IMG/VR virus record: IMGVR_UViG_2541047849_000007
Origin: a virus
Taxonomy: Duplodnaviria > Heunggongvirae > Uroviricota > Caudoviricetes
Length of the DNA stretch: 32,016 nt
Direction: 5' to 3' (one strand)
Shown here: positions 4,300 to 19,818 of the stretch, in pieces
Layout of the letters: each line of letters starts with the position of its first letter
How positions within the stretch are numbered: position 1 is the stretch's first letter
Program-made: the position numbers and the translations under genes
The notes under the pieces: generated by a model
Database searches by the model: none
The model's input: the letters and a program-made list of their open reading frames with translations, nothing else
What the model was told of the DNA's origin: nothing

Positions 4300-4326
4300 A
4301 TTTTATGATTTCTCCGGTTGTGCTGA

Positions 4327-4596
4327 TTACCACAAAGATTCCGGCCACACGACGCGACAGCCGTGCAGTTCGAAAACGCCCTGACGGAAATATCCCCTGT
4401 GGTCATGTCCGGTATACAGATAACAGGCCTTTCCCTGCTCAAGCATGCGCATGCAATGCGCACTCCGGGAAACGCGGATGACAGGTTTGTTACCCCTGAT
4501 GGTGATGCTTTGTACATCCGTGTTCGTCGCCTTAAGCGCCATAATGGCTGACTGCACTTTGCTGATTTGCTGGTTGATACCTGTGGTGGATTTCAT
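4327..4596 (-). CDS. Hypothetical protein (89 aa)
   Basis: ATG 4594-4596 with AAGGAG RBS, immediately after the B stop (TAATAATG). Confidence 0.45.
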   Translation of the reverse strand: MKSTTGINQQISKVQSAIMALKATNTDVQSITIRGNKPVIRVSRSAHCMRMLEQGKACYLYTGHDHRGYFRQGVFELHGCRVVWPESLW

Positions 4597-4598
4597 TA

Positions 4599-5765
4599 TT
4601 AAACTCCTTTGACAACGTCAGCGTTGACCTGTGGAACCCCGATTTCAGCGGCCAGATTCATGGCGGCTATTACCAGGTTACTGACGGCCAGCGGATACAG
4701 CAGGCTGACCATATTTTTACGATGACTTCCCGGATTGCTCAGGCGGGCACGTATGGCATCCACTGCGCTGGCGTCCATAATGTCCGTCAGTTGTTTACCG
4801 GCCCGTTGCAGTTTGAACGTCAGAAATTCTTCAAGGTTATTGTCCAGAGGCAGAAGTTCGACCACCTCACAGCGCTGAACGACTTCACGGACTTCCATAT
4901 TGCGTTCAGACAGTTTTGTCGCCAGTTCCGGCTGGCCAATCAGCACGATGGACAGCAGTTTTTTGAAACCGGACTCCAGCTCAAAAAAGCGTTTGAGGTG
5001 TTTCAGTGTCGGAATGGGCAGACTGTGGGCCTCCTCAATCACCAGAACGTGGCTGAACCCCGCCTGGCTGCTGTCTTTCAGGACGCGATGCAACTGGCGA
5101 AAGCGGGCGTCCTGACTGCGTCTGATGCTTTCCAGTGGTGCGATGGTACTGATAATGGCTTCGGCAATAGCTGCTGCCTTCAGGGTTTTCCCTTTCACAT
5201 CGTTGTCTTCCATAGCGATGATGTATGGCTCGATAACAATTACCGGCGCATTCTCGCGGTTAATACGTTCAGTCAGGTCGCGGCGCAGCGTGGATTTACC
5301 CGCACCGGACTCACCGATGACGGCCATAAACCCACCATGACGGGCTGTCTGGTACAGCGCCTCACGCACGTAGCGAATGTCCGGGGTGGTGAACACATCA
5401 TCAGAACCCTGCATGGCTTCATCGGCGAACGGGTCACGGAAAAGACCAAACGCTTTTTTGGTTGCTGGAAATAACACCTGTTTTTTGAGTAACATATTCT
5501 CTTCCTCACTGAGGCTCGTTTTATCTGTGGTACCCGCTGTACGGGGCGTGGCCGCGCCCTGTACAGCATCAAAACTCTTCGTTGTATCAATCCCCTGACT
5601 TTCCAGCCAGGACGCAAGACGCCGGCGCACTTCTCCGGGGCTGGTGCGGGGCCACGCGTTATGATTCACAATCTGGGCCAGCGTGGCCTCAGAAACATCG
5701 ACAGCTCTCGCCGCCACCGCCTGTGGAATACGGGCCTCTTTCAGTTGCTGCTTCAGTACCAGCAT
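4599..5765 (-). CDS. AAA+ transposition ATPase / target-DNA activator (MuB/TniB-like)
   Basis: Walker A GESGAGKST and Walker B-like VLVIEEAH; N-terminal HTH-like region. Preferred start is ATG 5763-5765 (GAGGAGGG RBS 5 nt upstream) rather than the track start at 5792. Immediately downstream of the transposase. Confidence 0.8.
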   Translation of the reverse strand: MLVLKQQLKEARIPQAVAARAVDVSEATLAQIVNHNAWPRTSPGEVRRRLASWLESQGIDTTKSFDAVQGAATPRTAGTTDKTSLSEEENMLLKKQVLFPATKKAFGLFRDPFADEAMQGSDDVFTTPDIRYVREALYQTARHGGFMAVIGESGAGKSTLRRDLTERINRENAPVIVIEPYIIAMEDNDVKGKTLKAAAIAEAIISTIAPLESIRRSQDARFRQLHRVLKDSSQAGFSHVLVIEEAHSLPIPTLKHLKRFFELESGFKKLLSIVLIGQPELATKLSERNMEVREVVQRCEVVELLPLDNNLEEFLTFKLQRAGKQLTDIMDASAVDAIRARLSNPGSHRKNMVSLLYPLAVSNLVIAAMNLAAEIGVPQVNADVVKGV

Positions 5766-5775
5766 GTTTCCCTCC

Positions 5776-7545
5776 TCAGTTGCCGTTAACAATGCTGATA
5801 ACGCTGCTGCGGGCCGGCGTGGTCAGCGTGGCCATGACTTCATCCAGTGCGGCTTCCGGTACGCCGTCCGGGTACTGTGCTGTTAACTGGCGGTAATGTT
5901 CCGGCGTCCAGGTCAGGCCGTCGGCGCTGAACTTATCGCGCAGGGCTTTCGCGGCCTCCACATGAGTCATGGGACGCTGTTCAGTGCGCGGTCCGCGTAC
6001 GTCAGAGGCCTGACCACGCTTCGGTATACAGGCCGGAAGTGTGGCGTCATCAATATGTTTATACGGGTCAAGCCGCCCGCCGAACGGCAGCGCCTTCGCC
6101 TTGCGTGCGGCAGCTGCATCTGCGGCGTTGTCTGTACCGGTGACCAGCGCTTCGGTTTCTTTTGCCGCCATCTGCGCCGGGGTTTCCGGCAGGGCTTTGT
6201 AACTTTCGCCAAATACCGCCGCGCCTTCAGCAAAGCCAAACTCGTTCTTTCTGACCTCTTCGACCAGGAAGAACGTCTCGTGGCCGTCCTCACCGGTCAG
6301 AACCACCTGTGCCACATCGCTGCGCCACGGGTTACGGGTAATCATCAGTTTTTCACCGACCAGTACGCCCGGTACCGTTGATACGTCAAATTCAGTGCCC
6401 CGGAACGAGACACGAAGTTTTGGCGTGACTTTGCGGAGTTCTGGTGCCGCCACAGCCAGTTCACGACATACCTCAACGGAAGGCGCTTTTTTCAGCTGCT
6501 CAGCAGTAATCTTCAGCCAGATATCCGTGCGGGTTTTACCGTGGCGGCTGTGAACAGCCGTGGCGTTAAAGTGGCTGCGCCATTTCGCGGCCAGCGCGTT
6601 GAGTTCTTCCAGACTGTGAACCGGCCGGAACTTCAGACCCGGCTCCAGCTTGCGTTCGATAATGTCACGCGCCTTTTCCACCTGTCCGGTGGCGCGGGCG
6701 TTATGCGGCTTGTGCGCTATCAGGTCGATGCCCAGTGAGCGGCACATGTTTTTCGTCATACCCGCGGTGTTTGCCGAGCCGGGGTCGAGATAGAGTATTT
6801 TTGGCACGCCGTGCAGCACGTCTGCGCCGCCACGCTCCTGCATGGCGTTGATAAGCACAGAACACAGGTTCTCACCGGATTCCGCACCCGTCACATACTC
6901 AACGTAAATCCAGCCGCTGGCATGGTCGGTAATCTCGTAACTCCACACGCGGTCACTGGCGATACGGGCAAGGTTAGCGGGCTTGTTTTTGTAGAATTTC
7001 GCGCTGTCCATCACCTGCAGCCCTTTATGTCCATTGCTCAGGTAGTAAAGCGTGCAGAGTGAGGCGTCAATCTGCCAGACATGATTGGGGTGCAGACTGG
7101 CCACTTCGGTATGCGGTGCAGGGGCATCCAGTTGTTCCGGGTGCAGGCCATAGTTACGCAGGGCACGACTGATGGCATCTTCGGACAACGGGAAAAACTC
7201 ACCGGTGGTTTCATCTGTTCTGCCTGCGGAGATAAAGCCGTTAGCCCGCAGGGTTTCCACTGCATCCGCGATGGAATAGAGACGCTTACCGTTCTTGCGG
7301 GTGGCCTCACGTAGTGTGGCAGATATCAGCGCGGCTTCGTCGCGGGTCAGGGTGCTGCGTCCGGCATCGGCGCGTTTTTTGCGTTTATCAGTCACAGAGA
7401 CCTCCTTCAGCCTGCGCAGCAGAGTGGCGCGGGACATGCCAAGTTCAGCACAGGCAGCGTCGTATATTGCACCGCGTTTACCATGCCCCGCATTACGTGC
7501 CGCGCGGGCTGTTTCAACAAGTTTTTCAGTCAGTGCCGGGGTCAT
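5776..7545 (-). CDS. DDE transposase (Mu A-like, rve/integrase core)
   Basis: 589 aa. N-terminal HTH region, then a catalytic core with candidate DDE residues (HVWQIDAS ... LYLDPGSANT ... downstream E). ATG 7543-7545. Confidence 0.85.
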   Translation of the reverse strand: MTPALTEKLVETARAARNAGHGKRGAIYDAACAELGMSRATLLRRLKEVSVTDKRKKRADAGRSTLTRDEAALISATLREATRKNGKRLYSIADAVETLRANGFISAGRTDETTGEFFPLSEDAISRALRNYGLHPEQLDAPAPHTEVASLHPNHVWQIDASLCTLYYLSNGHKGLQVMDSAKFYKNKPANLARIASDRVWSYEITDHASGWIYVEYVTGAESGENLCSVLINAMQERGGADVLHGVPKILYLDPGSANTAGMTKNMCRSLGIDLIAHKPHNARATGQVEKARDIIERKLEPGLKFRPVHSLEELNALAAKWRSHFNATAVHSRHGKTRTDIWLKITAEQLKKAPSVEVCRELAVAAPELRKVTPKLRVSFRGTEFDVSTVPGVLVGEKLMITRNPWRSDVAQVVLTGEDGHETFFLVEEVRKNEFGFAEGAAVFGESYKALPETPAQMAAKETEALVTGTDNAADAAAARKAKALPFGGRLDPYKHIDDATLPACIPKRGQASDVRGPRTEQRPMTHVEAAKALRDKFSADGLTWTPEHYRQLTAQYPDGVPEAALDEVMATLTTPARSSVISIVNGN

Positions 7546-7560
7546 AGCTTGTCTTCCCTG

Positions 7561-7878
7561 TTATCCGATTCTGGCGGCAATTTTTCTGGCACGGTCGCGC
7601 AGGGTTTCGCCATCGCAGGTTTTCACCACGTTATTTACCGGTTGCGGCGCAACTGCCGGGCGCAATGCTGACTGATGCTGCAGACGTCTTATCTGCTGCA
7701 TCAGCATCACTTCCATCGTCAGTACAAACGGATGCGCCTCCTGTGCGGGTACGCAGATTTCACCGGAAGGTGTCACCACGCGGAAACCCTGCACCATCTC
7801 CGGCAGCAGATTACACAGTGCGTGCCCCAGTGCCTCCGGGCTGTCCATCAGGATATTTTGTGTGTTATCCGTGTTCAT
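7561..7878 (-). CDS. Hypothetical protein (105 aa)
   Basis: ATG 7876-7878 overlaps the upstream stop (TAATG). No family recognised. Confidence 0.4.
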   Translation of the reverse strand: MNTDNTQNILMDSPEALGHALCNLLPEMVQGFRVVTPSGEICVPAQEAHPFVLTMEVMLMQQIRRLQHQSALRPAVAPQPVNNVVKTCDGETLRDRARKIAARIG

Positions 7879-8795
7879 TACTGCATGCCCTCCGGTCGGT
7901 TGATTTCAGGCTCCGGTTCGGTCAGCCATGCGGGGACATCGTTACCCGATGGTGCGGCATCAAGGTCGAACGTCTCACGCAATGCATGAACACTGCGTTC
8001 AATCTGGCAGACCAGACCGGCCATGAAATCTCTGGGGGTATCAATCATGTTTTTACTGCAGTATTCACACAGGGTTTCAAAGGCACCGGAGAGCCGGACG
8101 GCGATGGCAGATTCCGCCTCAACCGCTAATGCGGTCACTTCCGCCCGCAGCTTCTTCACCTCTTCATCAGGCTCAGGCGGTTGAATACGGGATTTCTTCT
8201 CCAGTTTTGTGGCCAGTTCGTTGATTTTTTCGTCCTTTCCGGCAAGCACCTGTTGCTGAGCTGCGTTAGTTTCGCGCGCTTCACGCAGGGCCTGGCGAAG
8301 TTCACGTACTGACATGCGATCAACATCATCAAGCGTCAGGCCGGCAACTGTGCCGCCGTCGGCCAGTTCGGCAAGGTCTTCATCGTCTTCAGCAACAAGT
8401 TCAAATAATTTTGCCTTACCCAAAAGCGACAACGTTGTCGCTTTTGGCTCTAGTTTTGGTGAAAGGTATTTCAAAGATGCTTTCATCATTCGTTGTGCTG
8501 CGCGCACGTGCAAACCAAGTTGTTCTTCTACAATTCCAACAAAGTCCCCGTGTGGCTCATTTTCTTTTAAGATGATCAGCCGTTTACCCGCTTCCAGCAT
8601 AGATTCAGCACTCTGCGCCATATAAAAACGTGCTTCGTGAACGATGCGATCACGTTCATAAGGCAGTCCATCACCAAACTGCTGCATGATCTCCATGCGA
8701 TGCTGTGTCATGGCATTCAGGCTGACGTTGAGATCATCCGACAGCGGTACCTCGGCGTTCAGTTCAGTGTTAACCGGTGATTTGGTGCGTCCCAT
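7878..8795 (-). CDS. Hypothetical protein (305 aa), acidic coiled-coil C-terminal half; possibly DUF3102-like
   Basis: ATG 8793-8795 with AAGGAG RBS. Family assignment is tentative and from memory only. Confidence 0.45.
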   Translation of the reverse strand: MGRTKSPVNTELNAEVPLSDDLNVSLNAMTQHRMEIMQQFGDGLPYERDRIVHEARFYMAQSAESMLEAGKRLIILKENEPHGDFVGIVEEQLGLHVRAAQRMMKASLKYLSPKLEPKATTLSLLGKAKLFELVAEDDEDLAELADGGTVAGLTLDDVDRMSVRELRQALREARETNAAQQQVLAGKDEKINELATKLEKKSRIQPPEPDEEVKKLRAEVTALAVEAESAIAVRLSGAFETLCEYCSKNMIDTPRDFMAGLVCQIERSVHALRETFDLDAAPSGNDVPAWLTEPEPEINRPEGMQ

Positions 8796-8805
8796 TGATT
8801 ACTCC

Positions 8806-9120
8806 TTACAAACGACTACCTGAAATGACACGTTGGTTGATTTCGTTAATGCGATCCTGTGCACGTGCCATCTCGTTACTGTGGGCCATGGCGATCTGCA
8901 GCAACTGGATGCCCGGTGCGAAACGCCCGTTTTCCAGTTTCAGGGCCAGTCCTTCTTCAATGAGGGTGTTGAGTGCCCGGTTGATGTTTGCCGGTGACTC
9001 GTGCAGTGCTGCCGCCAGTTCACCATTGGAAATACCGTTCAGGGCATGACCGCGCAGCGCTTTGAGTACCCGGAGGATGCGACTGCCGGAGCTTGAAACA
9101 TTCGTCTTACTCATCTGCAT
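8806..9120 (-). CDS. Winged-helix DNA-binding regulator (putative)
   Basis: ILRVLKALRGH ... ISNGELAAALHESPANINRALNTLIEEGLA resembles MarR/IclR-type winged HTH. An alternative start at ATG 9112-9114 has better GAGG spacing. Confidence 0.5.
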   Translation of the reverse strand: MQMSKTNVSSSGSRILRVLKALRGHALNGISNGELAAALHESPANINRALNTLIEEGLALKLENGRFAPGIQLLQIAMAHSNEMARAQDRINEINQRVISGSRL

Positions 9121-9166
9121 ACCTCTTTTGCGATATGTGATAACCTTTTACAAAGAATCAAAATAT

Positions 9167-9355
9167 TCAGGCTGCCTGAGCTGTTGATTTCAGCCCCAGT
9201 TTCACGGCGATTTCATGGGATTTACCGTAACGTGCTTTGCTCTGCCCATTGAGAACGCGGTATACCTCATTGCGGTTGTAGCCGTTTTCTTCTGCCCAGC
9301 GGGTGAAAGTGATCCCGCGCTGGCGGAAGAGAGCTTTGACTTGTTCTGCAGTCAT
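9167..9355 (-). CDS. ner: Ner-like DNA-binding protein (first gene of early operon)
   Basis: 62 aa. RYGKSHEIAVKLGL resembles the Mu Ner/Nlp C-terminal helix region. AAGGAG RBS. Sits directly downstream of a strong sigma70-like promoter and diverges from the repressor gene. Confidence 0.55.
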   Translation of the reverse strand: MTAEQVKALFRQRGITFTRWAEENGYNRNEVYRVLNGQSKARYGKSHEIAVKLGLKSTAQAA

Positions 9356-9402
9356 CGTTGTCTCCTTTGTTGATGCAATGATGTTTGCCTTATGTGTGAT
9401 AG

Positions 9403-9431
9403 ATTATGGTGCAGATTATCTCACCAGTCAA
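9403..9431 (-). promoter_or_regulatory. Early promoter (Pe-like) with overlapping putative operator repeats
   Basis: On the minus strand: TTGACT (-35; plus 9426-9431), 17-nt spacer, CATAAT (-10; plus 9403-9408). Direct repeats AGATTAT at about 9401-9407 and 9413-9419 overlap the -10 and spacer. Confidence 0.5.
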
Positions 9432-9455
9432 CTTAAAGAGTGCAGAAAAACTCAC

Positions 9456-9794
9456 ATGATCGGGTTACGTATTAAAGAAGAAAGAGAGCGTCTATCTCTT
9501 ACACAGCAAGGGTTGGCTGATGCTATCGGTGTGGCAAAGAGAACTTTTATTGATTGGGAAAAAGATCGCACTTCTCCTACTGCAGTGCAGTTATCTGCAC
9601 TATCAGAAATCGGTGTAGATGTTTTGTATGTAGTTACTGGGGTGCGGAGTCAGCCTGTTGTTGCACCTTATATGTCACAAGAAAAGAAAGAGTTAATGGA
9701 TGCATTCGACGAGATGAGCCCCGAACAACGGAGGGCAATTCTTGAGGTCGGCAAAGTCTTCATTCAACCCAAACCAAGCAAACTCGCAGGCTGA
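9456..9794 (+). CDS. XRE-family HTH repressor (lysogeny repressor candidate)
   Basis: ATG 9456. Classic HTH_3 region LSLTQQGLADAIGVAKRTFIDWEKDRTSP. Divergent from the early operon. The track ORF begins at an upstream GTG inside ner and is not preferred. Confidence 0.7.
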   Translation: MIGLRIKEERERLSLTQQGLADAIGVAKRTFIDWEKDRTSPTAVQLSALSEIGVDVLYVVTGVRSQPVVAPYMSQEKKELMDAFDEMSPEQRRAILEVGKVFIQPKPSKLAG

Positions 9795-9880
9795 TTCTGA
9801 CCTGGACAGAAAGGACAGGTGGTTGATCTGGATGCTTTCAGAAAACGCCGTCAGTAGCATGGCAGAAATCGGCGGGCTTA

Positions 9881-9914
9881 CCGGAAAGCACTGTACTTTC
9901 CGGTTATGGCTTTT
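9881..9914 (+). terminator. Rho-independent terminator after repressor gene
   Basis: CCGGAAAG-cactgta-CTTTCCGG (8-bp perfect stem) followed by TTATGGCTTTT. Also sits at the 3' end of the convergent dam gene. Confidence 0.55.
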
Positions 9915-10677
9915 AGAAATTGCAGATCACCAGCTCACGGCGTGGAGTTGATTTGCCTGCCAGACTGTAGTTGATGTTCACTGTCTGTATGTTCAGTCCA
10001 GTGAACACCTCGCGCATCTGCGGGATGTCGTTCACCGAAATTATCATCTTTCCTCTGATGCACCGGGCCAGCTCTGCCAGCCGCGAGTAGTTCCCTTCAG
10101 GAAAATCCACACCATAGCCTTCTGTACCCAGATACGGCGGGTCACAGTAGAACAGCGTGTGCGGACGGTCATAGCGCTCAATGCACTGTTGCCAGTCCAT
10201 GTGTTCTATCACCGTTCTGGAAAGCCGCAGGTGTGCCGCTGACAGTTCTTCCTCGATACGCAGCAGGTTGAAGCGTGGCGGGGATGTGGTGGAGGTGCCG
10301 AAGCTGTGCTCTGCCACCTTGCCGCCAAACGCCTGCTTCTGGAGGTAGTAGAACCGTGCTGCACGCTGGATATCCGTCAGTGTTTCTGTCGGGGTGATCT
10401 GCAGCCATTTGTAGATCTGCCGGCTGACCAGCGCCCATTTGAACTGGCGGACAAATTCTTCCAGATGATGTTTTACCACCCGATACAGATTTACCAGTTC
10501 ACCATTGATATCGTTAATGACTTCGAGCTTACCAGGTGTCTTAAGAAAATAGAGCGCTGCTGCGCCGCAGAACGGCTCCACGTAACATTCATGCGCCGGA
10601 AACAGCGGCAGGATGTGTTTTGCCAGGCGACGTTTGCCACCAATCCATGGAACGATGGGTAATGTCTGCATTTTCAT
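9913..10677 (-). CDS. dam: DNA N6-adenine methyltransferase (Dam/D12 class)
   Basis: 254 aa. Motif I region VEPFCGAAALYF and catalytic motif IV DPPY (FYCDPPYLGTEGYG). Confidence 0.85.
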   Translation of the reverse strand: MKMQTLPIVPWIGGKRRLAKHILPLFPAHECYVEPFCGAAALYFLKTPGKLEVINDINGELVNLYRVVKHHLEEFVRQFKWALVSRQIYKWLQITPTETLTDIQRAARFYYLQKQAFGGKVAEHSFGTSTTSPPRFNLLRIEEELSAAHLRLSRTVIEHMDWQQCIERYDRPHTLFYCDPPYLGTEGYGVDFPEGNYSRLAELARCIRGKMIISVNDIPQMREVFTGLNIQTVNINYSLAGKSTPRRELVICNF

Positions 10678-10869
10678 AATCTGTAAGCCTTTTACAATTA
10701 TTAAAAATATGGCAGGCTAGTCTGGTCTCGCGAGACTGACTGAACCCCGGTCGGCTCACAGCGCATTCCTGTGGGACGATGGCCAGCCCGGTGGGTCCGA
10801 AGCACCGGGCTGGTCGTTCTTTCATGATGCGGCAGGGATGAAGTGATTTCTGTTAATGTGGTTTAGGGA

Positions 10870-11085
10870 TTATCCGGGGCGATTTTCTGACCTTATCTGG
10901 TCCAGGGCATAAGTGATCCCTTCTGCAAAAACAGAAGTATCAAACTGCTTTTGTATTTCCTGAAAATGAACAGTGGCACGACAGACACTCAGTTCTCCGC
11001 GATGTAACCGGATAATATCTTCCAGAACATTGTTCACTGCTTCGGCACGGCGCTGATGTTCTGTTAACGTTAATCGGGGATTCAT
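10870..11085 (-). CDS. Hypothetical protein (71 aa)
   Basis: ATG 11083-11085 with AAGGAG RBS 7 nt upstream. No family recognised. Confidence 0.5.
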   Translation of the reverse strand: MNPRLTLTEHQRRAEAVNNVLEDIIRLHRGELSVCRATVHFQEIQKQFDTSVFAEGITYALDQIRSENRPG

Positions 11086-11462
11086 GATGCACTCCTTAAA
11101 TGATGATTTTTATGTACTCACCGGCAAAATATTCTGCCGATTACTGAACACGCATCCGGCTCCTCAGGTTTTGATTTATTCTGGTTTTTTCGATATCCCG
11201 GACCAGGTTGATCACGACAGAAAAAGTGCCGGTATTTTATTGATACGCTGATATGGCTTCGGGATAACAGCTATATTCGTTACTCTCAGTTGCTGGCTGT
11301 GGGAGCGGCTGATGTCGTCCTCACGGAAAAAACGCTCTGTCTGCTCAATGCCATGCCGACCTTTCTGCAGCCCCGGCCCGTACCATTTAAAGAGTCACTT
11401 CTGGATGCAGTAAAAACCGGTGAAAATGCAGTCATCGCTGAATGCGTATCCCGGATTATGCG

Positions 11463-12011
11463 TTACGTGTTTAATGAACGTAAGTGAGGTTTATCCGCTG
11501 TCTGCATAATCCCGATAGCCAGTGCGAGGGGAAGCAATTCCGGGGAAACTCTTTCAAACAGCGATTCCCATTCTCCTCTCGCCATCACTCTGTCCAGCCC
11601 GCCCTCCAGCTGCATTTCAGCAATCTTCCTGATTTCCCGGAACAACGCCGCTTTGATCTCTTCATGCTCAGCTTTATTTTCCGGTGTCAGAATGTATTCG
11701 TCGAAGAACCGGGGAGGCTGGTTAACGGGGGGCATGTTCACCGGGATGTGTTCCTGTATCCCGTACTCCGGGGCTGAAAAACATTTTGTTGTCTGACCGG
11801 TGAGTTTGCGTAACACCTTCATGAGTTGCTCCTGAAGCAGCTCATTCGTCCGACAGATACGCTCGTCGTCCACAACTGCGGCATCGACAATGACGCTTTT
11901 TCCAAATTCCTTTTTCACCATCTCTTTTATACGCGTCAGAACGTAACTTTTACCGCTGCCTACAGGCCCGGACACTCTGACGGTGATGGTCGGCTTCGGT
12001 GTGACTGTCAT
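11463..12011 (-). CDS. P-loop NTPase, small kinase-like fold (unknown substrate)
   Basis: Preferred start ATG 12009-12011 (AAGGAG RBS 7 nt upstream), giving about 182 aa. Walker A GPVGSGKS sits about 15 aa from the N-terminus, followed about 25 aa later by VIVDAAVVDDE, as in small nucleotide kinases. Confidence 0.55.
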   Translation of the reverse strand: MTVTPKPTITVRVSGPVGSGKSYVLTRIKEMVKKEFGKSVIVDAAVVDDERICRTNELLQEQLMKVLRKLTGQTTKCFSAPEYGIQEHIPVNMPPVNQPPRFFDEYILTPENKAEHEEIKAALFREIRKIAEMQLEGGLDRVMARGEWESLFERVSPELLPLALAIGIMQTADKPHLRSLNT

Positions 12012-12039
12012 TCTGTATCTCCTTTGTGAGTGATCCAGC

Positions 12040-12354
12040 GTGTATTCTGCATACCCCGAACACGCCTCTCTCTTAACGCGCTTTAAAATCCTCCGCGCCA
12101 CGCTTTTGCCATGCTGTCTCCACACAACAAGGAGACATTTTCATGAAACCATTCACTTCCCTTACCCGGACACCACGCAACTGGAACTGCGCCGTGAGCT
12201 TGATTACCTGGCAGATCGCAAAATGGTGGAACTGGAGAGGAGACCGTCCGGTGACTGGTTTGCCGATCTGAGTCGCCTTGGTGTGGATATTGTGGAATAC
12301 ACCGTGGAATGCGGCCCCGGTATTGCCCGCCCGGAAAAATACTGGAGTGAGTGA
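12040..12354 (+). CDS. Hypothetical protein, start undetermined (possible frameshifted gene)
   Basis: Protein-like reading frame runs to a TGA 2 nt before the terS ATG, but has no in-frame ATG with an RBS. The only ATG with a strong RBS (AAGGAGA, ATG 12143) is in the adjacent frame and gives a 42-aa Trp-rich product. Confidence 0.3.
   Translation: MYSAYPEHASLLTRFKILRATLLPCCLHTTRRHFHETIHFPYPDTTQLELRRELDYLADRKMVELERRPSGDWFADLSRLGVDIVEYTVECGPGIARPEKYWSE
12066..12090 (+). promoter_or_regulatory. Candidate late promoter motif, copy 1 (head of late operon)
   Basis: CTCTCTTAA-cgcg-CTTTAAAATC. Shares the TCTTAA-N4-CTTTAA(A/T)ATC pattern with sites at 23227 and 29577. About 50 nt upstream of the first late-operon RBS. 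Confidence 0.4.
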
Positions 12355-12356
12355 TT

Positions 12357-12899
12357 ATGGGACGTCGCAGCAGCATTGATTCTCTGCCGAAGGAGGTCCG
12401 TCGCTGGCTTGAGCGGGCACTGACGGAGAATAATTTCACCGGCTATGCAGAGCTTGAAAGTCTGTTGAAGGAAAAGGGGTACAGCATCACCCGCTCTTCC
12501 CTGCAGCGGTTTGGCTACAAAATGGAGCAGCAACTGGCCCGTGTGCGGGCGGCAACCGAGGCAGCGCGTCTGCTTGCCCGGGAGGCCGGAGACGATCCTG
12601 ATGACCGTTCAGCCGGACTGATAACCCTCGTCCAGACCGAAATGACGGATATCCTGATGCGCCTGCAGGAGTCGCGGGAAAACGACGATCCCTTCGCCCG
12701 GGCAAAACTGCTGGCAACGGCTTCAAAAAATATCGCCACACTGACCCGCGCCTCGGTCAACCTCAAGCGCTATCAGGCAGAAGTCAGAGAGAGGGTTGAA
12801 CGTGCTGCCGCTGCCGCCGAGAAAATTGCCCGTAAGGGCGGGCTCTCTGCGGAAGCCGTACAGGCACTGCGCCGGGAAATTCTGGGGGTGGCGTCATGA
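12357..12899 (+). CDS. Terminase small subunit (Mu gp27-like)
   Basis: 181 aa from ATG 12357. Positioned immediately upstream of, and overlapping (ATGA), the large terminase gene. N-terminal region resembles Mu gp27. Confidence 0.65.
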   Translation: MGRRSSIDSLPKEVRRWLERALTENNFTGYAELESLLKEKGYSITRSSLQRFGYKMEQQLARVRAATEAARLLAREAGDDPDDRSAGLITLVQTEMTDILMRLQESRENDDPFARAKLLATASKNIATLTRASVNLKRYQAEVRERVERAAAAAEKIARKGGLSAEAVQALRREILGVAS

Positions 12900-14419
12900 C
12901 GGAGCTGCCGCCGCACATTCCTGACACCGCGAGTTATGAGACACCGCCGGTTCTGTTGCCTTACCAGCAGCGCTGGGTGGCAGATACCTCTCCGCTTAAG
13001 GTGATGGAAAAGAGCCGTCGTACCGGTATTACATGGGCTGAGGCATCCGATAACGTACTGACCGCAGCCTCTTCTGCGCCTGCAGGCGGGATGAATGTGT
13101 ATTACATCGCCTATAACCAGGATATGACCGTCGAATACATTCAGGCGTGTGCGATGTGGGCGCGGGCATTCAACTATGCGGCCAGTGAAATTGAAGAAGG
13201 ATTCTGGGAGGAGGACGACGACGATAAACACATCAGGACTTACACCATCAAATTTCCTGACTCCGGCTTTCGCATTGTCGCGCTCTCCAGCCGCCCGTCT
13301 AACCTGCGTGGCCGTCAGGGTATTATTGTTATCGACGAAGCGGCGTTCCATGAGCAACTGGACGAACTGCTGAAAGCGGCGCTGGCGATGCTTATCTGGG
13401 GGGGCAAGGTACGCGTTATCTCCACCCATGACGGTGACGACAATCCATTCAGTACGCTTATCGGAGATATCCGTGCCGGACGTCAGGGAGGCAGCGTACA
13501 TCGCATCACTTTCCGGGAAGCCGTATCTGAGGGGCTGTTCCAGCGCGTTTGTCTGCGCACCGGGAAGGAATGGTCGGAGGCATCCGAGCTGGCCTGGATG
13601 GCGTCGGTGTACAAATTCTACGGTGCCGGCGCATCCGAAGAGCTTGACTGTATTCCGGCCAACGGTGGCGGTGCCTGGCTGTCCCGTGCCCTGATAGAGT
13701 CCCGAATGTCCGCTGATACGCCAGTATTGCGTCTGACCTGCAAGGAAGGTTATGAACTGCTGTCTGATGAGGTTCGCTTCCACGAGACACAGGACTGGCT
13801 TGATGAGCATCTGAAACCCTTGCTGGAGGCACTCCCCACTGATGCCCGCTCTTTCCTGGGGCGCGACTTTGGTCGCAGCGGTGATTTGTCGGTGGACTAT
13901 CCCCTGCTGCAGGAGAAGAACCTGGTACGACGCGTGCCATTCGTACTGGAGCTGCGTAACGTGCCGTTCAGACAGCAGGAGCAAATCACCTGGTATCTGA
14001 TGGATGGCCTGCCCGGTCTGCTGGGTGCAGCATTTGATGCCCGTGGTAATGGTGCCTATCTGGCTGAATACGCCATGCAGCGCTACGGCTCCAGCCGGGT
14101 TCAGCAGGTGATGCCAACCGAAGGCTGGTACCGGGAGCATATGCCTCCGGTCAAAGCTGCACTGGAAGACGGTAACCTGCTGGACTTACCAAAAGATGAA
14201 GACACACTGGATGACCTGCGGGCCGTTCAGGTGGTGAACGGTGTCCCCCGCGTGCCGGAACAACGCTCAAAAGCAAAGGCTGATGGTGGTAAACGCCACG
14301 GGGATTCAGCCATCGCACTGGCGCTGGCGTATTTCGCCAGCCGTGAAATTAACAAAGGGCCGGTGAAGGCAAGCTCACGACGTCGTCGTCAGGCGGCCCG
14401 TATGCTGGAGGGATTCTGA
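12896..14419 (+). CDS. Terminase large subunit (Mu gp28-like)
   Basis: 507 aa. Size, position and acidic nuclease-like C-terminal half fit a Mu-type large terminase. Confidence 0.8.
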   Translation: MTELPPHIPDTASYETPPVLLPYQQRWVADTSPLKVMEKSRRTGITWAEASDNVLTAASSAPAGGMNVYYIAYNQDMTVEYIQACAMWARAFNYAASEIEEGFWEEDDDDKHIRTYTIKFPDSGFRIVALSSRPSNLRGRQGIIVIDEAAFHEQLDELLKAALAMLIWGGKVRVISTHDGDDNPFSTLIGDIRAGRQGGSVHRITFREAVSEGLFQRVCLRTGKEWSEASELAWMASVYKFYGAGASEELDCIPANGGGAWLSRALIESRMSADTPVLRLTCKEGYELLSDEVRFHETQDWLDEHLKPLLEALPTDARSFLGRDFGRSGDLSVDYPLLQEKNLVRRVPFVLELRNVPFRQQEQITWYLMDGLPGLLGAAFDARGNGAYLAEYAMQRYGSSRVQQVMPTEGWYREHMPPVKAALEDGNLLDLPKDEDTLDDLRAVQVVNGVPRVPEQRSKAKADGGKRHGDSAIALALAYFASREINKGPVKASSRRRRQAARMLEGF

Positions 14420-15915
14420 TGGCAAAAGGTATCTGGGTTTCACCCGATGAGTTCGTGGCGTTTGCCGAACCCAAAAAGTCACTGACCGCGCAGATTGCCT
14501 CCCGCAGCCGCGCCATCGACTTTTACGCTCTGGGAATGTACCTGCCCAACCCTGATCCCATTCTCAAGGCTCAGGGACGGGATATCCGTATCTACCGCGA
14601 ACTGCGCACCGACCCGCTGGTCGGGGGCTGTATCCGCAGACGTAAAGCAGCGGTCAAATCGCTGGAACGTGGACTGGAGCGCGGTCACGCTTCTGCCCGG
14701 GTCTTCCGTTTCATCCGCGACATGCTCGACGATCTGGATCTGTCCCGCATCATCGGTGAGATGAGCGATGCCGTGCTCTACGGGTATCAGCCCTGTGAAA
14801 TCATGTGGGGCCGTTCGGTCAGGGCGTGGGCGGTGACGGATATTGTCGGCAAACCGCCTGAGTGGTTTCAGTTTGATACGGACAACTGCCTGCGCTTCCG
14901 GGCTCGTGATGCGGGTGTGGAGGGTGAGCTGCTGTCACCGTCAAAATTCGTGGTGCCGGCACAGGATGCCTCGTATGACAATCCTTACGGTTTCCCGGAC
15001 CTGTCCATGTGCTTCTGGCCGGTCGCCTTCAAGAAAGGCGGGATGAAATTCTGGCTCCGCTTTGCCGAAAAGTTTGGCTCCCCCTGGGTCATCGGTAAGC
15101 ACCCGAGGGGTGCAAATGATGCAGAGATTGAAAAACTGCTGGACTCCATGGAGCAGATGGTGGAGGACGCGGTGGCCGCCATCCCTGATGACAGCAGCAT
15201 CGAACTCAAAGCAGCGGATGGCAAGGCGGACAGCAGCGAGGTATTCCGCGAGCTGATCACACTGTCACGCAGTGAGATCTCCATTGCATTACTCGGTCAG
15301 AATCAGACCACGGAAGCGAACAGTAACAAGGCCTCTGCACAGGCCGGGCTGGAGGTGACGGCTGATATCCGCGATGCGGATGCGGACATCATTCAGGCGG
15401 CAGTGAATCAGGTCATAAGAACGGTGGTCACCCTGAACTTCGGCGATGTGCCGTGTCCGGTCTGGGCCATGTGGGAACAGGAGGCCATTGATGACACCCG
15501 TGCCACCCGCGATGAAAAACTCACCCGGGCGGGTCTGCGTCTGACCCCGCAATACTTCAAGCGTGAGTACCAGCTGCAGGACGGCGATATTGACGAGACA
15601 CCACCGTCAGAATGCGAGAAGAACATGCTGCCGCTGTCATTTGCCGAGGCGATTGATGCCGATATTCAGGCTCAGCAGCAGCTTGACGACGCGCTGGACA
15701 TTCTGATGAACGGAGGTGTGTTAAATGGCACGCTGGAACCCGTCCTGGCACCTCTGTTCAGACGGGTCGAAAACGGGGTTAACCCGACTGAGCTGCTGGG
15801 CGAACTGGCGGAGCTCTACCCTCAGATGAACACGGACGATCTGCAGGAGCGGCTGGCCCGTATTCTCTTTGTGGCAAATATCTGGGGGCATCTGCATGAG
15901 CGTGACAACGGCTGA
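14419..15915 (+). CDS. Portal protein (Mu gp29-like, DUF935)
   Basis: 498 aa immediately after the large terminase (TGATG overlap), the standard position for a Mu-like portal. Confidence 0.8.
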   Translation: MAKGIWVSPDEFVAFAEPKKSLTAQIASRSRAIDFYALGMYLPNPDPILKAQGRDIRIYRELRTDPLVGGCIRRRKAAVKSLERGLERGHASARVFRFIRDMLDDLDLSRIIGEMSDAVLYGYQPCEIMWGRSVRAWAVTDIVGKPPEWFQFDTDNCLRFRARDAGVEGELLSPSKFVVPAQDASYDNPYGFPDLSMCFWPVAFKKGGMKFWLRFAEKFGSPWVIGKHPRGANDAEIEKLLDSMEQMVEDAVAAIPDDSSIELKAADGKADSSEVFRELITLSRSEISIALLGQNQTTEANSNKASAQAGLEVTADIRDADADIIQAAVNQVIRTVVTLNFGDVPCPVWAMWEQEAIDDTRATRDEKLTRAGLRLTPQYFKREYQLQDGDIDETPPSECEKNMLPLSFAEAIDADIQAQQQLDDALDILMNGGVLNGTLEPVLAPLFRRVENGVNPTELLGELAELYPQMNTDDLQERLARILFVANIWGHLHERDNG

Positions 15916-16717
15916 ACTGGCGTACTGCATGACGCTTCCCCCGAAGCGGGCAGTCAGCTACCTGAAGTCCAAAGGGTATCAGATTACCTGGGACCAGGAA
16001 GAAATGTGGCAGGACGCCCATGCCCGCGCCTTTACCGTCGCTAAAGTGACCCGCCTGGATATTCTGGAAGATATTCGCGGGACACTGCAGCAGGCTGTTG
16101 ATGAAGGAAAAACCGATCGCTGGTTCCGGCAGGAGCTGGAGCCGGCGCTGAAGCGCAGGGGATGGTGGGGACCGCGTGACACGACTGACCCGGTAACGGG
16201 TGAGCCGGTCACCATTCAGCAGGGCAGTCCGTGGCGGCTCGATACCATCTTTCGCACCAATATGTCCGTACTCTACAGCGCCGGTCGTTGGGCGGAGCAG
16301 ATGGAAAACGTCGACGACAGGCCGTACTGGATGTATACCGGCATCAACGACAGCCATACCCGCAGGAGCCATCTGGCGCTGCATGGTCTGGTGCTGCGCT
16401 GGGATGACCCGTTCTGGCAGGCATTTTACCCGCCGAACGGCTGGCGCTGCCGCTGTAGTGTGATTGCCCTGAGTGCGGCGGATGTACGTGCCCGTGGCCT
16501 GAAGGTTATCAGCTCCGGCTCTGCCATGGGCCAGGAACTGAAACTGGTCTCAGAGAAAACCGGCGAAATGTGGAACGTGGCCACCTTTAATACCGGCACC
16601 ACGAAGGTGACCACCGACGTCGGCTGGTCTTATGCACCGGGGGCAGCATACCGTCCCGACCTGGCCCGCTATCAGGGTACGCTTCAGCCACTGGCACAAC
16701 AGGAACTGAGAGGATAA
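15896..16717 (+). CDS. Head morphogenesis protein (Mu F / gp30-like)
   Basis: About 273 aa from ATG 15896, overlapping the portal end. Position and content fit the Mu F family. Confidence 0.7.
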   Translation: MSVTTAELAYCMTLPPKRAVSYLKSKGYQITWDQEEMWQDAHARAFTVAKVTRLDILEDIRGTLQQAVDEGKTDRWFRQELEPALKRRGWWGPRDTTDPVTGEPVTIQQGSPWRLDTIFRTNMSVLYSAGRWAEQMENVDDRPYWMYTGINDSHTRRSHLALHGLVLRWDDPFWQAFYPPNGWRCRCSVIALSAADVRARGLKVISSGSAMGQELKLVSEKTGEMWNVATFNTGTTKVTTDVGWSYAPGAAYRPDLARYQGTLQPLAQQELRG

Positions 16718-16719
16718 CA

Positions 16720-17178
16720 ATGGCTTCCGATAACCTGGTCAGTGTCACCATTAATGATAAATCCCTGCGCCGGAGCCTCCGTGCGCTGGATCTGGCTGCC
16801 ACAGACATGGAGCCTGCGATGCGCAAAATCGCCGGAACCCTGCTGGCGGAAACACAGTTTAACTTTCTTGATGAGGGGCGTCCGGGGTGGATGCCCTCGC
16901 TGGCAGCGGAAGAACGTAACGGACAGACACTGCAGGATACCGGGCGTCTGATGGGGTCAGTATCAACCGAGCATGACGACCGGCAGGCTGTTGTGGGGAC
17001 CAACGTTGTTTACGGTGCCATTCACCAGTTCGGGGGTAAAACGGGGCGTAATGAGTCTGTTGAACTTCCGGCCCGCCCGTTCCTGCCGGTGACGGAGGAT
17101 GGAGAGCTACAGCCTGAAGTGGTAGTCCCCATCCTCGATACCATTGTCCGCCATCTTGAAGCAGCGGCCCGTCGCTGA
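16720..17178 (+). CDS. Virion morphogenesis protein (Mu G-like)
   Basis: 152 aa; position and size match Mu G. GAGAGGA RBS. Confidence 0.65.
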   Translation: MASDNLVSVTINDKSLRRSLRALDLAATDMEPAMRKIAGTLLAETQFNFLDEGRPGWMPSLAAEERNGQTLQDTGRLMGSVSTEHDDRQAVVGTNVVYGAIHQFGGKTGRNESVELPARPFLPVTEDGELQPEVVVPILDTIVRHLEAAARR

Positions 17179-17318
17179 GTTTTCTCTCTTCAGGCGGGTG
17201 ATTTATCATTGCCAGCGAATGAGGGGCTGTATTACCTTTATAAAGGCTTTACAGCCTCTGTTTTATAACTGCCTCCGGTTCACCACATTGCTTTCCCTGT
17301 CCTTCTCCCCTGATGTTT

Positions 17319-17337
17319 TCTAAAGCAGATTAAAATC
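17319..17337 (+). promoter_or_regulatory. Candidate late promoter motif, copy 2 (upstream of I; weaker match)
   Basis: TCTAAA-gcag-ATTAAAATC about 55 nt upstream of ATG 17393. One base shorter than the other copies. Confidence 0.3.
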
Positions 17338-17392
17338 GCCGGGCCCGCATTTCTCACAAACTGTCTCCGACAACATAACGCGGGACAGCAAA

Positions 17393-18508: not shown

Positions 18509-18517
18509 GGAGAAAGC

Positions 18518-19817: not shown

Positions 19818-19818
19818 G

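What the first reader, a model, noticed from the sequence alone, without database searches (positions are those of the whole stretch)
9795..12356. Accessory locus between the repressor and the late operon: Dam methyltransferase, 71-aa ORF and a kinase-like P-loop protein, all antisense to the late genes
Three genes with good RBSs sit in a 2.5 kb segment that separates the immunity region from the structural operon and is transcribed against it. They are flanked by structured non-coding DNA (terminator at 9881-9914, GC-rich dyads at about 10720-10815, a 377-bp gap at 11086-11462). None is needed for a Mu-type life cycle. The arrangement resembles cargo loci that carry anti-restriction, superinfection-exclusion or defence functions.
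Basis: inference. Interest (0 to 1): 0.6.

Follow-up and report, generated by a model that had tools for sequence, protein, structure and literature searches.

The report
Accessory gene bay of a Mu-like prophage
The segment is the swappable cargo bay of a BcepMu-type transposable prophage of E. coli: it holds a well-conserved orphan DNA adenine methyltransferase coupled to a previously undescribed structured RNA, plus E. coli-only genes of unknown function that are partly decayed in this copy, so it is a real but largely ordinary accessory locus.

Summary
The three minus-strand ORFs exist, and RefSeq annotates them in an identical E. coli prophage. The window is a BcepMu-like transposable prophage.

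Comparison with 46 species-level relatives and 73 viral contigs shows that the interval between repressor and holin is a gene-turnover hotspot. The 'accessory cargo' reading is therefore supported. Several details of the finding are wrong.

- **The 'Dam'.** It is 98% identical to M.EcoMIV of ST131 prophage Phi2, an orphan D12 methyltransferase with no assigned motif. It lacks the EcoDam residues that read GATC. It is under strong purifying selection.
- **The 'GC-rich dyads'.** They are a covariation-supported, + strand structured RNA (10719-10819) ending in a terminator. It always sits 17 nt from the methyltransferase start and matches nothing in Rfam.
- **The '377-bp gap'.** It is a frameshifted + strand gene of family phrog_2266.
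- **The 'kinase-like P-loop protein'.** It is a short allele of a mosaic, phage-restricted family. The family conserves only a 75-aa N-terminal domain with a Walker-A-like motif. No kinase or NTPase fold is supported.
- **The boundary with the late operon.** It is a 2,151-bp deletion scar that removed the lysis cassette.

No known defence family matches except the methyltransferase. The most likely function is late self-methylation of phage DNA, gated by the RNA. The other genes remain unassigned.

The parts
9880..9914 (+). Intrinsic terminator (9-bp stem plus T run) downstream of the immunity repressor gene; it overlaps the methyltransferase stop codon
   Evidence: Terminator scan. MFE -16.1 kcal/mol. 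The T run follows the hairpin on the + strand only.
9913..10677 (-). Orphan D12-class N6-adenine DNA methyltransferase (254 aa), orthologue of M.EcoMIV of ST131 prophage Phi2; target sequence unknown
   Evidence: - PF02086, E 1e-28.
- TIGR00571 116.8 bits against a cutoff of 114.85; EcoDam equivalog 67 bits against 441.
- PADLOC MTase_II, E 1e-112.
- 98% identical to the EC958 Phi2 methyltransferase.
- dN/dS 0.03-0.09.
10694..10832 (+). Conserved structured RNA. Hairpin A is at 10719-10741. A closing stem pairs 10742-10745 with 10816-10819. Hairpin B is at 10750-10780. Hairpin C (10781-10815) is a terminator followed by UCGUUCUUUC. A possible promoter, TTTTCA-16-TACAAT, lies at 10671-10698.
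   Evidence: - RNAalifold on 17 sequences gave 13 compensatory pairs.
- Pair counts: 97.6% of cells paired, with 0/500 shuffles reaching the observed values.
- With 63 distinct sequences, 96.4% of cells are paired and 20 of 39 pairs show compensatory change.
- The + strand pairs 645/661 cells (105 G-U); the - strand pairs 542/661.
- Single-sequence fold z-score is -3.05 on + and -1.5 on -.
- The covariance model finds it only next to the methyltransferase.
- No Rfam match.
10870..11085 (-). 71-aa ORF of unknown function (phrog_4490), restricted to E. coli BcepMu-like prophages
   Evidence: phrog_4490, E 5e-51 over the full length. Only 13 protein clusters, all at 70% identity or more. Strong RBS. 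Few substitutions, mostly synonymous.
11084..11487 (+). Pseudogene of a phrog_2266-family protein (134 aa when intact). One C is lost at about 11218, splitting it into ORFs 11084-11251 and 11290-11487.
   Evidence: Alignment with intact relatives. The intact form hits phrog_2266 at E 6e-44. The window fragments hit at E 8e-11 and 1e-19. The same frameshift is present in LH10-b-1.
11463..12011 (-). 182-aa short allele of a mosaic phage protein family (phrog_3787). The N-terminal domain carries GPVGSGKS. This allele lacks about 65 aa of the common 247-aa form, including the conserved third strand.
   Evidence: Alignments. Profile search of 1.84 billion representatives. Family sequences. dN/dS 0.49. 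AF2 mean pLDDT 43 and 70. No fold match.
12012..12142 (.). Divergent control region between the P-loop-N gene and the holin remnant. It contains the conserved motif TTAACGCGCTTTAAAATCC (12073-12091), which precedes the holin in relatives and is a presumed late promoter.
   Evidence: Homologous spacer upstream of the holin in simple-architecture relatives. The motif is unique in the window.
12143..12354 (+). Deletion scar. The first 7 codons of the holin (ATG at 12143) are fused out of frame at 12163/12164 to the 3' part of the phrog_436 gene that precedes the Mu gp27-like gene.
   Evidence: BLAST against L001: window 1-12164 equals L001 4304-16465, and 12163 onward equals L001 18617 onward. 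2-bp microhomology at the junction. The junction is absent from 5,426 complete E. coli genomes. phrog_436 hit.

Best explanation
Window 9795-12356 is the exchangeable accessory bay that BcepMu-type transposable phages carry between the immunity repressor and the late (lysis) promoter. In this E. coli lineage it holds two nested modules.

**Module 1** is common to Enterobacterales relatives. It is an orphan D12 N6-adenine methyltransferase transcribed away from the late genes, joined at a fixed 17-nt distance to a divergently oriented, roughly 120-nt structured RNA that ends in an intrinsic terminator just upstream of the late promoter.
- Inferred function: the enzyme is kept almost silent in the lysogen and is made during lytic growth. 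It then methylates replicating phage DNA at a still unknown, probably non-GATC site. Packaged genomes would thereby resist restriction in the next host.
- Inferred role of the RNA: it is complementary to the methyltransferase leader. It acts as a cis-antisense brake on the enzyme, and its terminator also shields the lysis genes from rightward read-through.

**Module 2** is a later insertion, seen almost only in E. coli, between the RNA terminator and the late promoter. It comprises a 71-aa gene, a phrog_2266 gene on the opposite strand, and a mosaic protein with a Walker-A-like N-terminal domain. Its function is unknown. The most likely role is a host-interaction or counter-defence function that evolves by module shuffling.

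In this copy Module 2 is partly inactivated by a frameshift and an internally deleted allele. The adjacent lysis cassette is deleted, so the prophage is probably unable to lyse.

**Shown:** the anatomy, the homologies, the turnover, the selection on the methyltransferase, and the RNA structure and its strand.

**Inferred:** the timing of expression, the antisense control, the anti-restriction role, and any role of Module 2.
For: - **Identity of the element.** It is 99.98% identical to the prophage inserted in tnaB of E. coli LH10-b-1 and related to Bcepmuvirus phage PhiKM.
- **Hotspot.** The interval ranges from 984 to 5,252 bp, with 107 ORF clusters in 46 relatives. E. coli WS3294A carries different cargo.
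- **Methyltransferase.** It hits PF02086 and has the DPPY motif. dN/dS is 0.03-0.09. It is 98% identical to EC958 Phi2 M.EcoMIV, which is transcribed far below dam in lysogens and has no assigned motif.
- **RNA.** Covariation and strand asymmetry support it. It is adjacent to the methyltransferase in all 73 IMG/VR contigs and in 19 model hits across 18 loci. The spacing is 17 nt in 64 of 67 cases. It persists where the methyltransferase gene was lost (L005) and is duplicated in L003.
- **Insertion.** The simple architecture 'Dam- RNA+ holin+', with about 96 nt to the holin ATG, is the commonest. Its spacer is homologous to window 12066-12142.
- **Decay.**
Against: - There are no expression data for this prophage. 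The promoter of the RNA is only a 9/12 consensus match, and no sigma-70 promoter is evident for the methyltransferase.
- The target site of the enzyme is unknown, and no cognate restriction enzyme or sensitive host is known.
- A three-hairpin structure is more than a simple antisense RNA or terminator needs. The element is also retained where the methyltransferase is deleted (L005), so it may have a function independent of the enzyme.
- GATC is under-represented in the prophage (observed/expected 0.57). This neither supports nor excludes a Dam-like specificity.
- Nothing links Module 2 to any function. Its dN/dS of about 0.5 and frequent frameshifted homologues fit weak constraint.
Confidence: 0.55

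Rival explanations
1. The locus is a lysogen-expressed defence or superinfection-exclusion island. The methyltransferase and its neighbours would protect the host cell against other phages.
For: - The position is a cargo hotspot.
- Relatives carry, at this site, a weak match to a 2TM effector (PADLOC PDLC00712, E 7.5e-5), an NA37 nucleoid-protein pair, lipoproteins and small membrane proteins co-oriented with the repressor.
- The mosaic evolution of the P-loop-N family is typical of arms-race genes.
Against: - The 71-aa, phrog_2266 and P-loop-N proteins have no significant PADLOC match: no hits for the first two and only weak Walker-A-type hits (E 4e-4 or worse) for P-loop-N.
- No restriction partner lies next to the methyltransferase.
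- The orthologous methyltransferase is nearly silent in ST131 lysogens, with no detectable motif.
- The genes point away from the repressor operon.
- Two of the four cargo genes are damaged in this copy, and this copy persists in at least 15 complete genomes.
Confidence: 0.15
2. Apart from the methyltransferase-RNA module, the segment is decaying, selectively neutral cargo in a prophage that is becoming cryptic. The 71-aa and P-loop ORFs have no current function.
For: - The phrog_2266 gene is frameshifted.
- A 65-aa internal deletion removes a family-wide conserved strand of the P-loop-N domain.
- Many frameshifted or truncated family members exist.
- dN/dS is about 0.5 for P-loop-N, and the phrog_2266 gene shows no excess of synonymous change.
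- The lysis cassette is deleted.
Against: - The short 182-aa allele exists as a second lineage only 84% identical, with its ORF preserved next to intact neighbours and intact lysis genes.
- Its in-frame dN/dS (0.49) is lower than in the shifted frames tested (about 1.0-1.3), apart from one antisense frame (0.31).
- The 71-aa gene keeps a strong RBS and shows mostly synonymous changes.
- About 10% of complete E. coli genomes carry at least part of the locus, mostly its methyltransferase, 71-aa and phrog_2266 portion.
Confidence: 0.2
3. The methyltransferase is a developmental regulator rather than an anti-restriction device. Methylation of phage sites would time transposition or late transcription, as host Dam does for Mu mom, IS10 and Tn5. 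The RNA would then be an independent trans-acting sRNA or an insulator.
For: - The enzyme lies between the immunity and late control regions.
- Precedent for methylation control of transposases and of Mu mom comes from established knowledge and from the discussion in PMC4659465.
- The RNA survives loss of the methyltransferase in L005 and has highly conserved stem sequences in hairpin B.
Against: The methyltransferase-RNA module is absent from most BcepMu-like phages, including all Burkholderiales and Pseudomonadales relatives sampled. It therefore cannot be a core regulatory step. The target motif is unknown.
Confidence: 0.1

Closest known systems
M.EcoMIV (EC958_1101), orphan methyltransferase of E. 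coli ST131 prophage Phi2 (Forde et al. 2015, PMC4659465)
   Same: It is 98% identical in protein (250/254). It sits at the same place in the same kind of prophage, with the same neighbours (242-aa P-loop-N, 134-aa and 72-aa genes). It is D12 class, PF02086.
   Different: In the ST131 copy the neighbours are intact: a full-length P-loop-N allele, an intact phrog_2266 gene and an intact lysis cassette. The paper does not describe the RNA or the neighbouring genes.
GATC-specific Dam enzymes (EcoDam 2G1P, T4 Dam, DpnM 2DPM)
   Same: Same family and catalytic motifs (DPPY). It aligns over the whole length with EcoDam (E 3.5e-14) and over residues 3-185 with DpnM (E 6.5e-17).
   Different: Bit scores against these enzymes are low (55-65 bits). 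The NCBIfam EcoDam equivalog scores 67 bits against a cutoff of 441. In the DNA-reading hairpin, EcoDam Y119/N120/L122/R124 align with F/G/K/A. The roles of those residues come from my knowledge of the EcoDam-DNA structure. GATC specificity is therefore not established.
Phage self-modification as anti-restriction (P1 Dam, T4 Dam, Mu Mom/Com)
   Same: A phage-borne DNA-modifying enzyme that is dispensable for growth, tightly controlled and expected to act before packaging. This is a functional analogy from established knowledge.
   Different: The chemistry differs from Mom. There is no Com-like zinc-finger activator; the 71-aa protein has a single Cys. Control here appears to involve an antisense-oriented structured RNA instead.
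Moron or accessory hotspots of temperate and transposable phages (BcepMu 'pathogenesis factor' genes; anti-CRISPR loci of Pseudomonas Mu-like phages)
   Same: A fixed position between conserved modules, high gene turnover, small ORFan genes, and their own orientation and terminators.
   Different: The content is unrelated to described morons, and no phenotype is known.
Cis-antisense RNAs and leader terminators of mobile elements (IS10 RNA-OUT, P22 sar, lambda oop; lambda 6S RNA/tR')
   Same: A short structured transcript with an intrinsic terminator, placed head-to-head with a gene whose leader it would complement. It lies immediately upstream of the lysis operon.
   Different: There is no sequence or Rfam relationship. 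The fold is a three-hairpin junction. The late promoter motif lies downstream of the terminator, so it is not a lambda-type Q-antiterminated leader. Transcription has not been shown.
P-loop NTPases and nucleotide kinases
   Same: A strand-GxxGxGK[ST]-helix start (GPVGSGKS). It gives weak hits to AAA, ABC, T2SSE, UreG and guanylate kinase models, confined to the Walker-A region.
   Different: - All hits are below the curated cutoffs.
- The conserved domain is only about 75 aa, with no recognisable Walker B, lid or further core strands.
- Some relatives have N in place of S/T.
- The models have low confidence and match no solved fold.
- The window allele lacks the third conserved strand.

Membership tests
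D12-class N6-adenine DNA methyltransferases (PF02086 / TIGR00571) | Profile match above the curated cutoff over the full domain | tested here: met
   PF02086 scores 101.3 bits against a cutoff of 22, covering residues 11-234. TIGR00571 scores 116.8 against 114.85, which is borderline.
D12-class N6-adenine DNA methyltransferases (PF02086 / TIGR00571) | Catalytic motif IV (D/N)PPY and an N-terminal AdoMet-binding motif | tested here: met
   The sequence reads ...LFYCDPPYLGT... and ...EPFCGAAALYF....
GATC-specific Dam (EcoDam equivalog NF008152) | Equivalog-level profile score | tested here: not met
   67.2 bits against a cutoff of 441.
GATC-specific Dam (EcoDam equivalog NF008152) | Conserved DNA-recognition hairpin residues (EcoDam Y119, N120, L122, R124, P134) | tested here: not met
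   The aligned residues are F117, G118, K120, A122 and S132. The residue roles come from my knowledge of the EcoDam-DNA structure.
GATC-specific Dam (EcoDam equivalog NF008152) | Methylation of GATC shown experimentally | not testable with these tools
   For the 98%-identical M.EcoMIV, no motif could be assigned in SMRT data from a lysogen (PMC4659465).
P-loop NTPase / nucleotide kinase | Walker A motif GxxxxGK[ST] | tested here: met
   GPVGSGKS at residues 15-22. G and K are invariant in 52 relatives.
P-loop NTPase / nucleotide kinase | Profile match above the curated cutoff to any NTPase or kinase family | tested here: not met
   The best hits (AAA_35, AAA_30, T2SSE, UreG, guanylate kinase) are all below their cutoffs and confined to the Walker-A region.
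P-loop NTPase / nucleotide kinase | Three-layer alpha/beta fold with a Walker B strand | tested here: inconclusive
Known anti-phage defence systems (PADLOC-DB v2) | Significant profile match of the component proteins | tested here: not met
   Only generic MTase_II models match the methyltransferase. There is nothing for the 71-aa or phrog_2266 proteins and only weak Walker-A hits for P-loop-N.
Phage accessory (moron) hotspot | A fixed position between conserved modules, with different, dispensable genes in related phages | tested here: met
   46 loci, 107 ORF clusters, interval 984-5,252 bp. 73 IMG/VR contigs show at least 6 cargo architectures.
Structured non-coding RNA | Base pairs kept through compensatory changes, with strand-specific G-U pairs | tested here: met
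   In the 17-sequence alignment, 13 of 39 pairs are compensatory; in the alignment of 63 distinct sequences, 20 of 39 are. 0/500 shuffles reach the observed values. There are 105 G-U cells on the + strand and 2 on the - strand. Caveat: alignment A9 was fitted to the model, and hairpin B was used as the search pattern.
Structured non-coding RNA | Membership of a described Rfam family | tested here: not met
   No match at E<=1 in 9000-13000.
Structured non-coding RNA | Evidence that the RNA is transcribed | not testable with these tools
   There is only a 9/12 promoter-like match at 10671-10698 and a terminator-like 3' end.
phrog_2266 protein family | Full-length open reading frame matching the profile | tested here: not met
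   The two fragments match profile positions 1-45 and 83-142 in different frames. Intact relatives match positions 1-142.

The most novel reading that the evidence does not exclude
The methyltransferase and the + strand three-hairpin RNA form a previously undescribed phage module. In it, a new class of cis-antisense RNA (or a dual-function sRNA and insulator) gates a late-acting orphan methyltransferase of novel specificity. The adjacent P-loop-N proteins, with a conserved 75-aa N-terminal domain and shuffled C-terminal modules, would be polymorphic counter-defence effectors, possibly delivered with the virion. Together these would make the bay a counter-defence island of enterobacterial transposable phages.
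Probability: 0.2. Interest if true: 0.6.

Novelty: new member of a known kind. Interest (0 to 1): 0.38.

Why it matters
At least part of the locus is present in about 10% of complete E. coli genomes, including the pandemic ST131 clone. There its methyltransferase (M.EcoMIV) has been an unexplained, apparently silent enzyme since 2015.

Two results make that enzyme tractable. It belongs to an exchangeable bay, and it is physically coupled to a conserved, covariation-supported RNA. Together these give a concrete, testable reason for its silence in lysogens. They also add an uncatalogued RNA motif (92 hits in loci from 18 genomes and 73 viral contigs) to phage regulatory biology.

The mosaic P-loop-N family is a candidate arms-race protein. 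The findings also correct annotation: the 'gap' is a pseudogene, the 'kinase' label is unfounded, and this prophage copy has lost its lysis genes.

Tried and rejected
- **Known RNA family for the dyads.** Rfam found nothing at E<=1.
- **Protein-coding reading of the dyad region (minus-strand ORF 10589-10825).** The ORF is open (60 aa or more) in only 6 of the 46 intervals compared, although the RNA element is present in many more of those loci. Its start points vary and it is not annotated. The substitutions are compensatory in stems. Rejected.
- **Lambda-type late leader (6S/tR') reading of the RNA.** The conserved late-promoter motif lies downstream of the terminator, and the RNA tracks the methyltransferase rather than the holin. 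Unlikely.
- **Com/Mom-type control by the 71-aa protein.** It has no zinc-finger cysteines, and most methyltransferase-RNA modules lack the 71-aa gene. Rejected.
- **Defence-system search.** PADLOC on all cargo proteins, including those of relatives, gave only a weak 2TM hit in another species' cargo.
- **dN/dS for the phrog_2266 and 71-aa genes.** Too few substitutions to be decisive.
- **Contig L096 (70%-identical 71-aa homologue).** The assembly is fragmented by frameshifts and was not used.
- **First guess at EC958 coordinates.** It missed the prophage. The position was found from the tail-fibre inversion coordinates in PMC4134206.
- **Literature search for BcepMu or PhiKM descriptions of this locus.** Nothing relevant.


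Full report
**What the window is.**
The window is a BcepMu-type (Bcepmuvirus) transposable prophage of E. coli.
- Its first 12,164 bases and bases 12,163-24,011 are 99.98-99.99% identical to a prophage inserted in tnaB of E. coli LH10-b-1.
- Over window 9764-11835 the locus itself is 93% identical in DNA to the deposited Escherichia phage PhiKM.
- The early operon runs leftward on the minus strand: a Ner-like gene, an IclR-type HTH gene, DUF3102, a DDE transposase, an ExeA/MuB-like gene, Gam and others, ending with Mor.
- The HTH repressor and the late genes (Mu gp27-like, terminase, portal and onward) run rightward.
- The finding concerns the segment between the repressor and the late genes.

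**Check of the observation.**
- The three minus-strand ORFs are real. RefSeq annotates them in the identical prophage as a DNA adenine methylase (254 aa), a 71-aa hypothetical and a 182-aa hypothetical.
- The P-loop ORF starts at ATG 12011 behind AAAGGAG, not at the GTG at 12125.
- The hairpin at 9880-9904 with its T run is a + strand terminator for the repressor gene.
- Window 9795-12164 is an exact match to LH10-b-1, so nothing described below is a private sequencing error of the window.

**The 'gap' is a broken gene.**
- In relatives, the 377 bp between the 71-aa and P-loop genes encode a 134-aa + strand protein (for example WP_000972292.1) of phrog_2266, E 6e-44.
- A diverged paralogue of the same family is inserted next to it in some strains. 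This shows that the family is a real protein family.
- In the window one C is missing near 11218, which splits the gene into two frames. The two fragments still match the N- and C-terminal parts of the profile.

**The right-hand boundary is a deletion scar.**
- Relative to LH10-b-1, 2,151 bp are missing at window 12163/12164.
- The lost segment held the holin after its seventh codon, the SLT transglycosylase, two further lysis-region genes (one PGAP-annotated as a membrane protein in a relative), and the 5' part of the phrog_436 gene.
- The junction has 2-bp microhomology.
- The junction is found in none of 5,426 complete E. coli genomes. It is therefore a rare event, or an artefact of the source assembly.
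- ORF 12040-12354 is the resulting fusion remnant.

**The bay is a turnover hotspot.**
- Using the transposase as anchor, I fetched 80 prophages from different species.
- In the 46 that include both flanks, the Ner-to-holin interval is 984-5,252 bp. It contains 107 ORF clusters, of which only the repressor is common (44 of 46).
- The methyltransferase is present only in Enterobacterales.
- The 71-aa and phrog_2266 genes were found only in the E. coli loci of that set. The P-loop gene gave just one other hit, a partial 58%-identity match in Citrobacter braakii (L065). Their close homologues in a database of 5.8 billion proteins are, where a source is named, almost all from E. coli.
- E. coli WS3294A has three unrelated genes here, plus a 225-bp relic of the methyltransferase end.
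- Cargo elsewhere includes DUF2441 proteins, a weak 2TM-effector match, an NA37 nucleoid-protein pair, lipoproteins and small membrane proteins.
That criterion is not met, so the 'accessory cargo' reading stands.

**The methyltransferase.**
- It is a D12-class enzyme: PF02086, a DPPY motif, and TIGR00571 just above its cutoff.
- It is under strong purifying selection, with dN/dS of 0.03-0.09.
- It is 98% identical to the only methyltransferase of EC958 prophage Phi2. I located Phi2 through the tail-fibre inversion coordinates in PMC4134206. That enzyme is M.EcoMIV (EC958_1101).
- Forde et al. reported three things about M.EcoMIV (PMC4659465). No homologue above 65% identity has a known site. 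Its transcript level in the lysogen is far below that of dam. No motif could be assigned to it.
- It fails the EcoDam equivalog model (67 bits against 441). In the DNA-reading hairpin, EcoDam Y119/N120/L122/R124 align with F/G/K/A.
- Calling it 'Dam' in the sense of GATC methylation is therefore not justified.

**The dyads are a structured RNA on the + strand.**
- The 147 nt upstream of the methyltransferase start are conserved across genera at about the level of the adjoining methyltransferase coding DNA.
- RNAalifold on 17 sequences predicts the following elements, followed by UCGUUCUUUC:

| Element | Window coordinates |
|---|---|
| Hairpin A | 10719-10741 |
| Closing stem | 10742-10745 with 10816-10819 |
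| Hairpin B | 10750-10780 |
| Hairpin C (GC-rich terminator) | 10781-10815 |

- In the 17-sequence alignment, 97.6% of cells are paired and 13 pairs show compensatory change. None of 500 shuffles reaches the observed values, and slid controls fall to 27-51% paired.
- The strand is clear. 645 of 661 cells pair on the + strand, 105 of them G-U, against 542 on the minus strand. Single-sequence folding gives -56.2 kcal/mol (z -3.05) on the + strand and -43.9 (z -1.5) on the minus strand.
- A covariance model finds the element only beside the methyltransferase. This includes the relic in WS3294A and two copies in one E. coli strain.
- A pattern scan of IMG/VR gave 73 more contigs, all with the order 'methyltransferase(-) RNA(+)'. 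The spacing is 17 nt in 64 of 67 cases.
- With 63 distinct sequences, 20 of 39 pairs show compensatory change. One caveat applies: that alignment is model-fitted, and hairpin B was the search pattern.
- Rfam has no match.
- The commonest architecture is methyltransferase(-) RNA(+) holin(+), with about 96 nt between the RNA and the holin ATG. That spacer carries TTAACGC..TTTAAAATCC and is homologous to window 12066-12142.
- It follows that the 71-aa, phrog_2266 and P-loop-N genes are an insertion between the RNA terminator and the late promoter.

**The 'P-loop' protein.**
- The common form has 247 aa. The window's 182-aa allele lacks about 65 aa in two blocks.
- A profile search of 1.84 billion representatives found 70 relatives. 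They share only the first 75 or so residues: strand, GxxGxGK[S/N], helix, strand, a W..P loop, then a strand. Behind that they carry shuffled C-terminal modules.
- The window allele has lost the W..P loop and the third strand, which are conserved across the family.
- Relatives sit at the same place, divergent from the holin. In one lineage the gene lies directly upstream of the methyltransferase.
- The short allele exists in a second lineage at 84% identity with intact neighbours, and has dN/dS 0.49. It is weakly constrained rather than dead.
- All matches to NTPase models are below threshold and confined to the Walker A region.
- 'Kinase-like' is therefore not supported.

**The 71-aa gene.**
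- It matches phrog_4490 over its full length and has a strong RBS.
- It is confined to 13 near-identical clusters (where a source is named, from E. coli) and shows mostly synonymous differences.
- It has no detectable relatives of known function.

**Most likely mechanism.**
- Shown: a conserved methyltransferase-RNA module, an inserted lineage-restricted cassette seen almost only in E. coli, and decay of that cassette and of the lysis genes in this copy.
- Inferred: the methyltransferase is silent in the lysogen and acts during lytic growth, so that packaged DNA is protected against restriction.
- Inferred: the + strand RNA is complementary to whatever leader the methyltransferase mRNA has. 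It restrains the enzyme, and its terminator shields the late promoter and lysis genes from rightward transcription.
- The inserted cassette has no assignable function. Its mosaic evolution suggests host interaction.
- Confidence in the overall picture is about 0.55. Confidence is much lower for each inferred step.

**Verdict.**
This is a real accessory locus of a known kind, containing an already catalogued but uncharacterised methyltransferase. The new element is the RNA tied to that enzyme.

Noticed in passing
window 12143-12354 (junction at 12163/12164): A 2,151-bp deletion relative to the otherwise identical LH10-b-1 prophage removes the holin (after codon 7), the SLT transglycosylase and two further lysis-region genes, and truncates the 5' end of the phrog_436 gene. 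The junction has 2-bp microhomology and is absent from 5,426 complete E. coli genomes. This prophage copy is probably lysis-defective, or the assembly is faulty.
   Followed up: yes
window 11084-11487 (+), frameshift near 11218: The phrog_2266-family gene is inactivated by loss of one C. The same lesion is present in LH10-b-1. Its start codon overlaps that of the 71-aa gene by 2 nt on the opposite strand, and its 3' end overlaps the P-loop gene's 3' end by 25 nt. One 53%-identical Serratia homologue is named DUF2513 by its source.
   Followed up: partly
window 12073-12091 (+): The motif TTAACGCGCTTTAAAATCC, about 50 nt upstream of the holin start, is conserved in relatives with and without the inserted cassette. 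It is unique in the window and is a candidate binding region for the Mor-type late activator.
   Followed up: partly
L003 3993-4128 and 4628-4765 (E. coli IGC_RcoliRes_1.1); also L169: Two diverged copies of the structured RNA flank an extra phrog_2266 paralogue. This suggests that cargo genes move together with a copy of the element, or that the element serves as a recombination anchor.
   Followed up: partly
window 10686-10690 and 10711-10715: AGGCU on the + strand (AGCCU on the methyltransferase mRNA strand), just 5' of hairpin A, is invariant in all 17 sequences. It could pair with the methyltransferase Shine-Dalgarno region (AAGGCU). This may be an anti-SD element, but there is no covariation to test it.
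   Followed up: no
L077 (Apirhabdus apintestini) 4770-6990: The methyltransferase gene is split by an insertion of about 1.95 kb near its 5' end, while the RNA element stays intact.
   Followed up: no
L008, L017, L052 (Mixta, Pectobacterium, Terasakiispira prophages), same bay: A conserved gene pair recurs as cargo in distant hosts. It consists of an NA37 nucleoid-associated protein (PF04245, E 9e-86) and a roughly 400-aa partner (phrog_5023) that looks membrane-associated from its sequence.
   Followed up: partly
window 27-28: There are two extra bases (GC) relative to LH10-b-1, inside the first left-end ORF of the prophage.
   Followed up: no
whole window: GATC (observed/expected 0.57) and CTAG (0.39) are under-represented. 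This matches the GATC depletion of mobile elements reported for EC958.
   Followed up: partly
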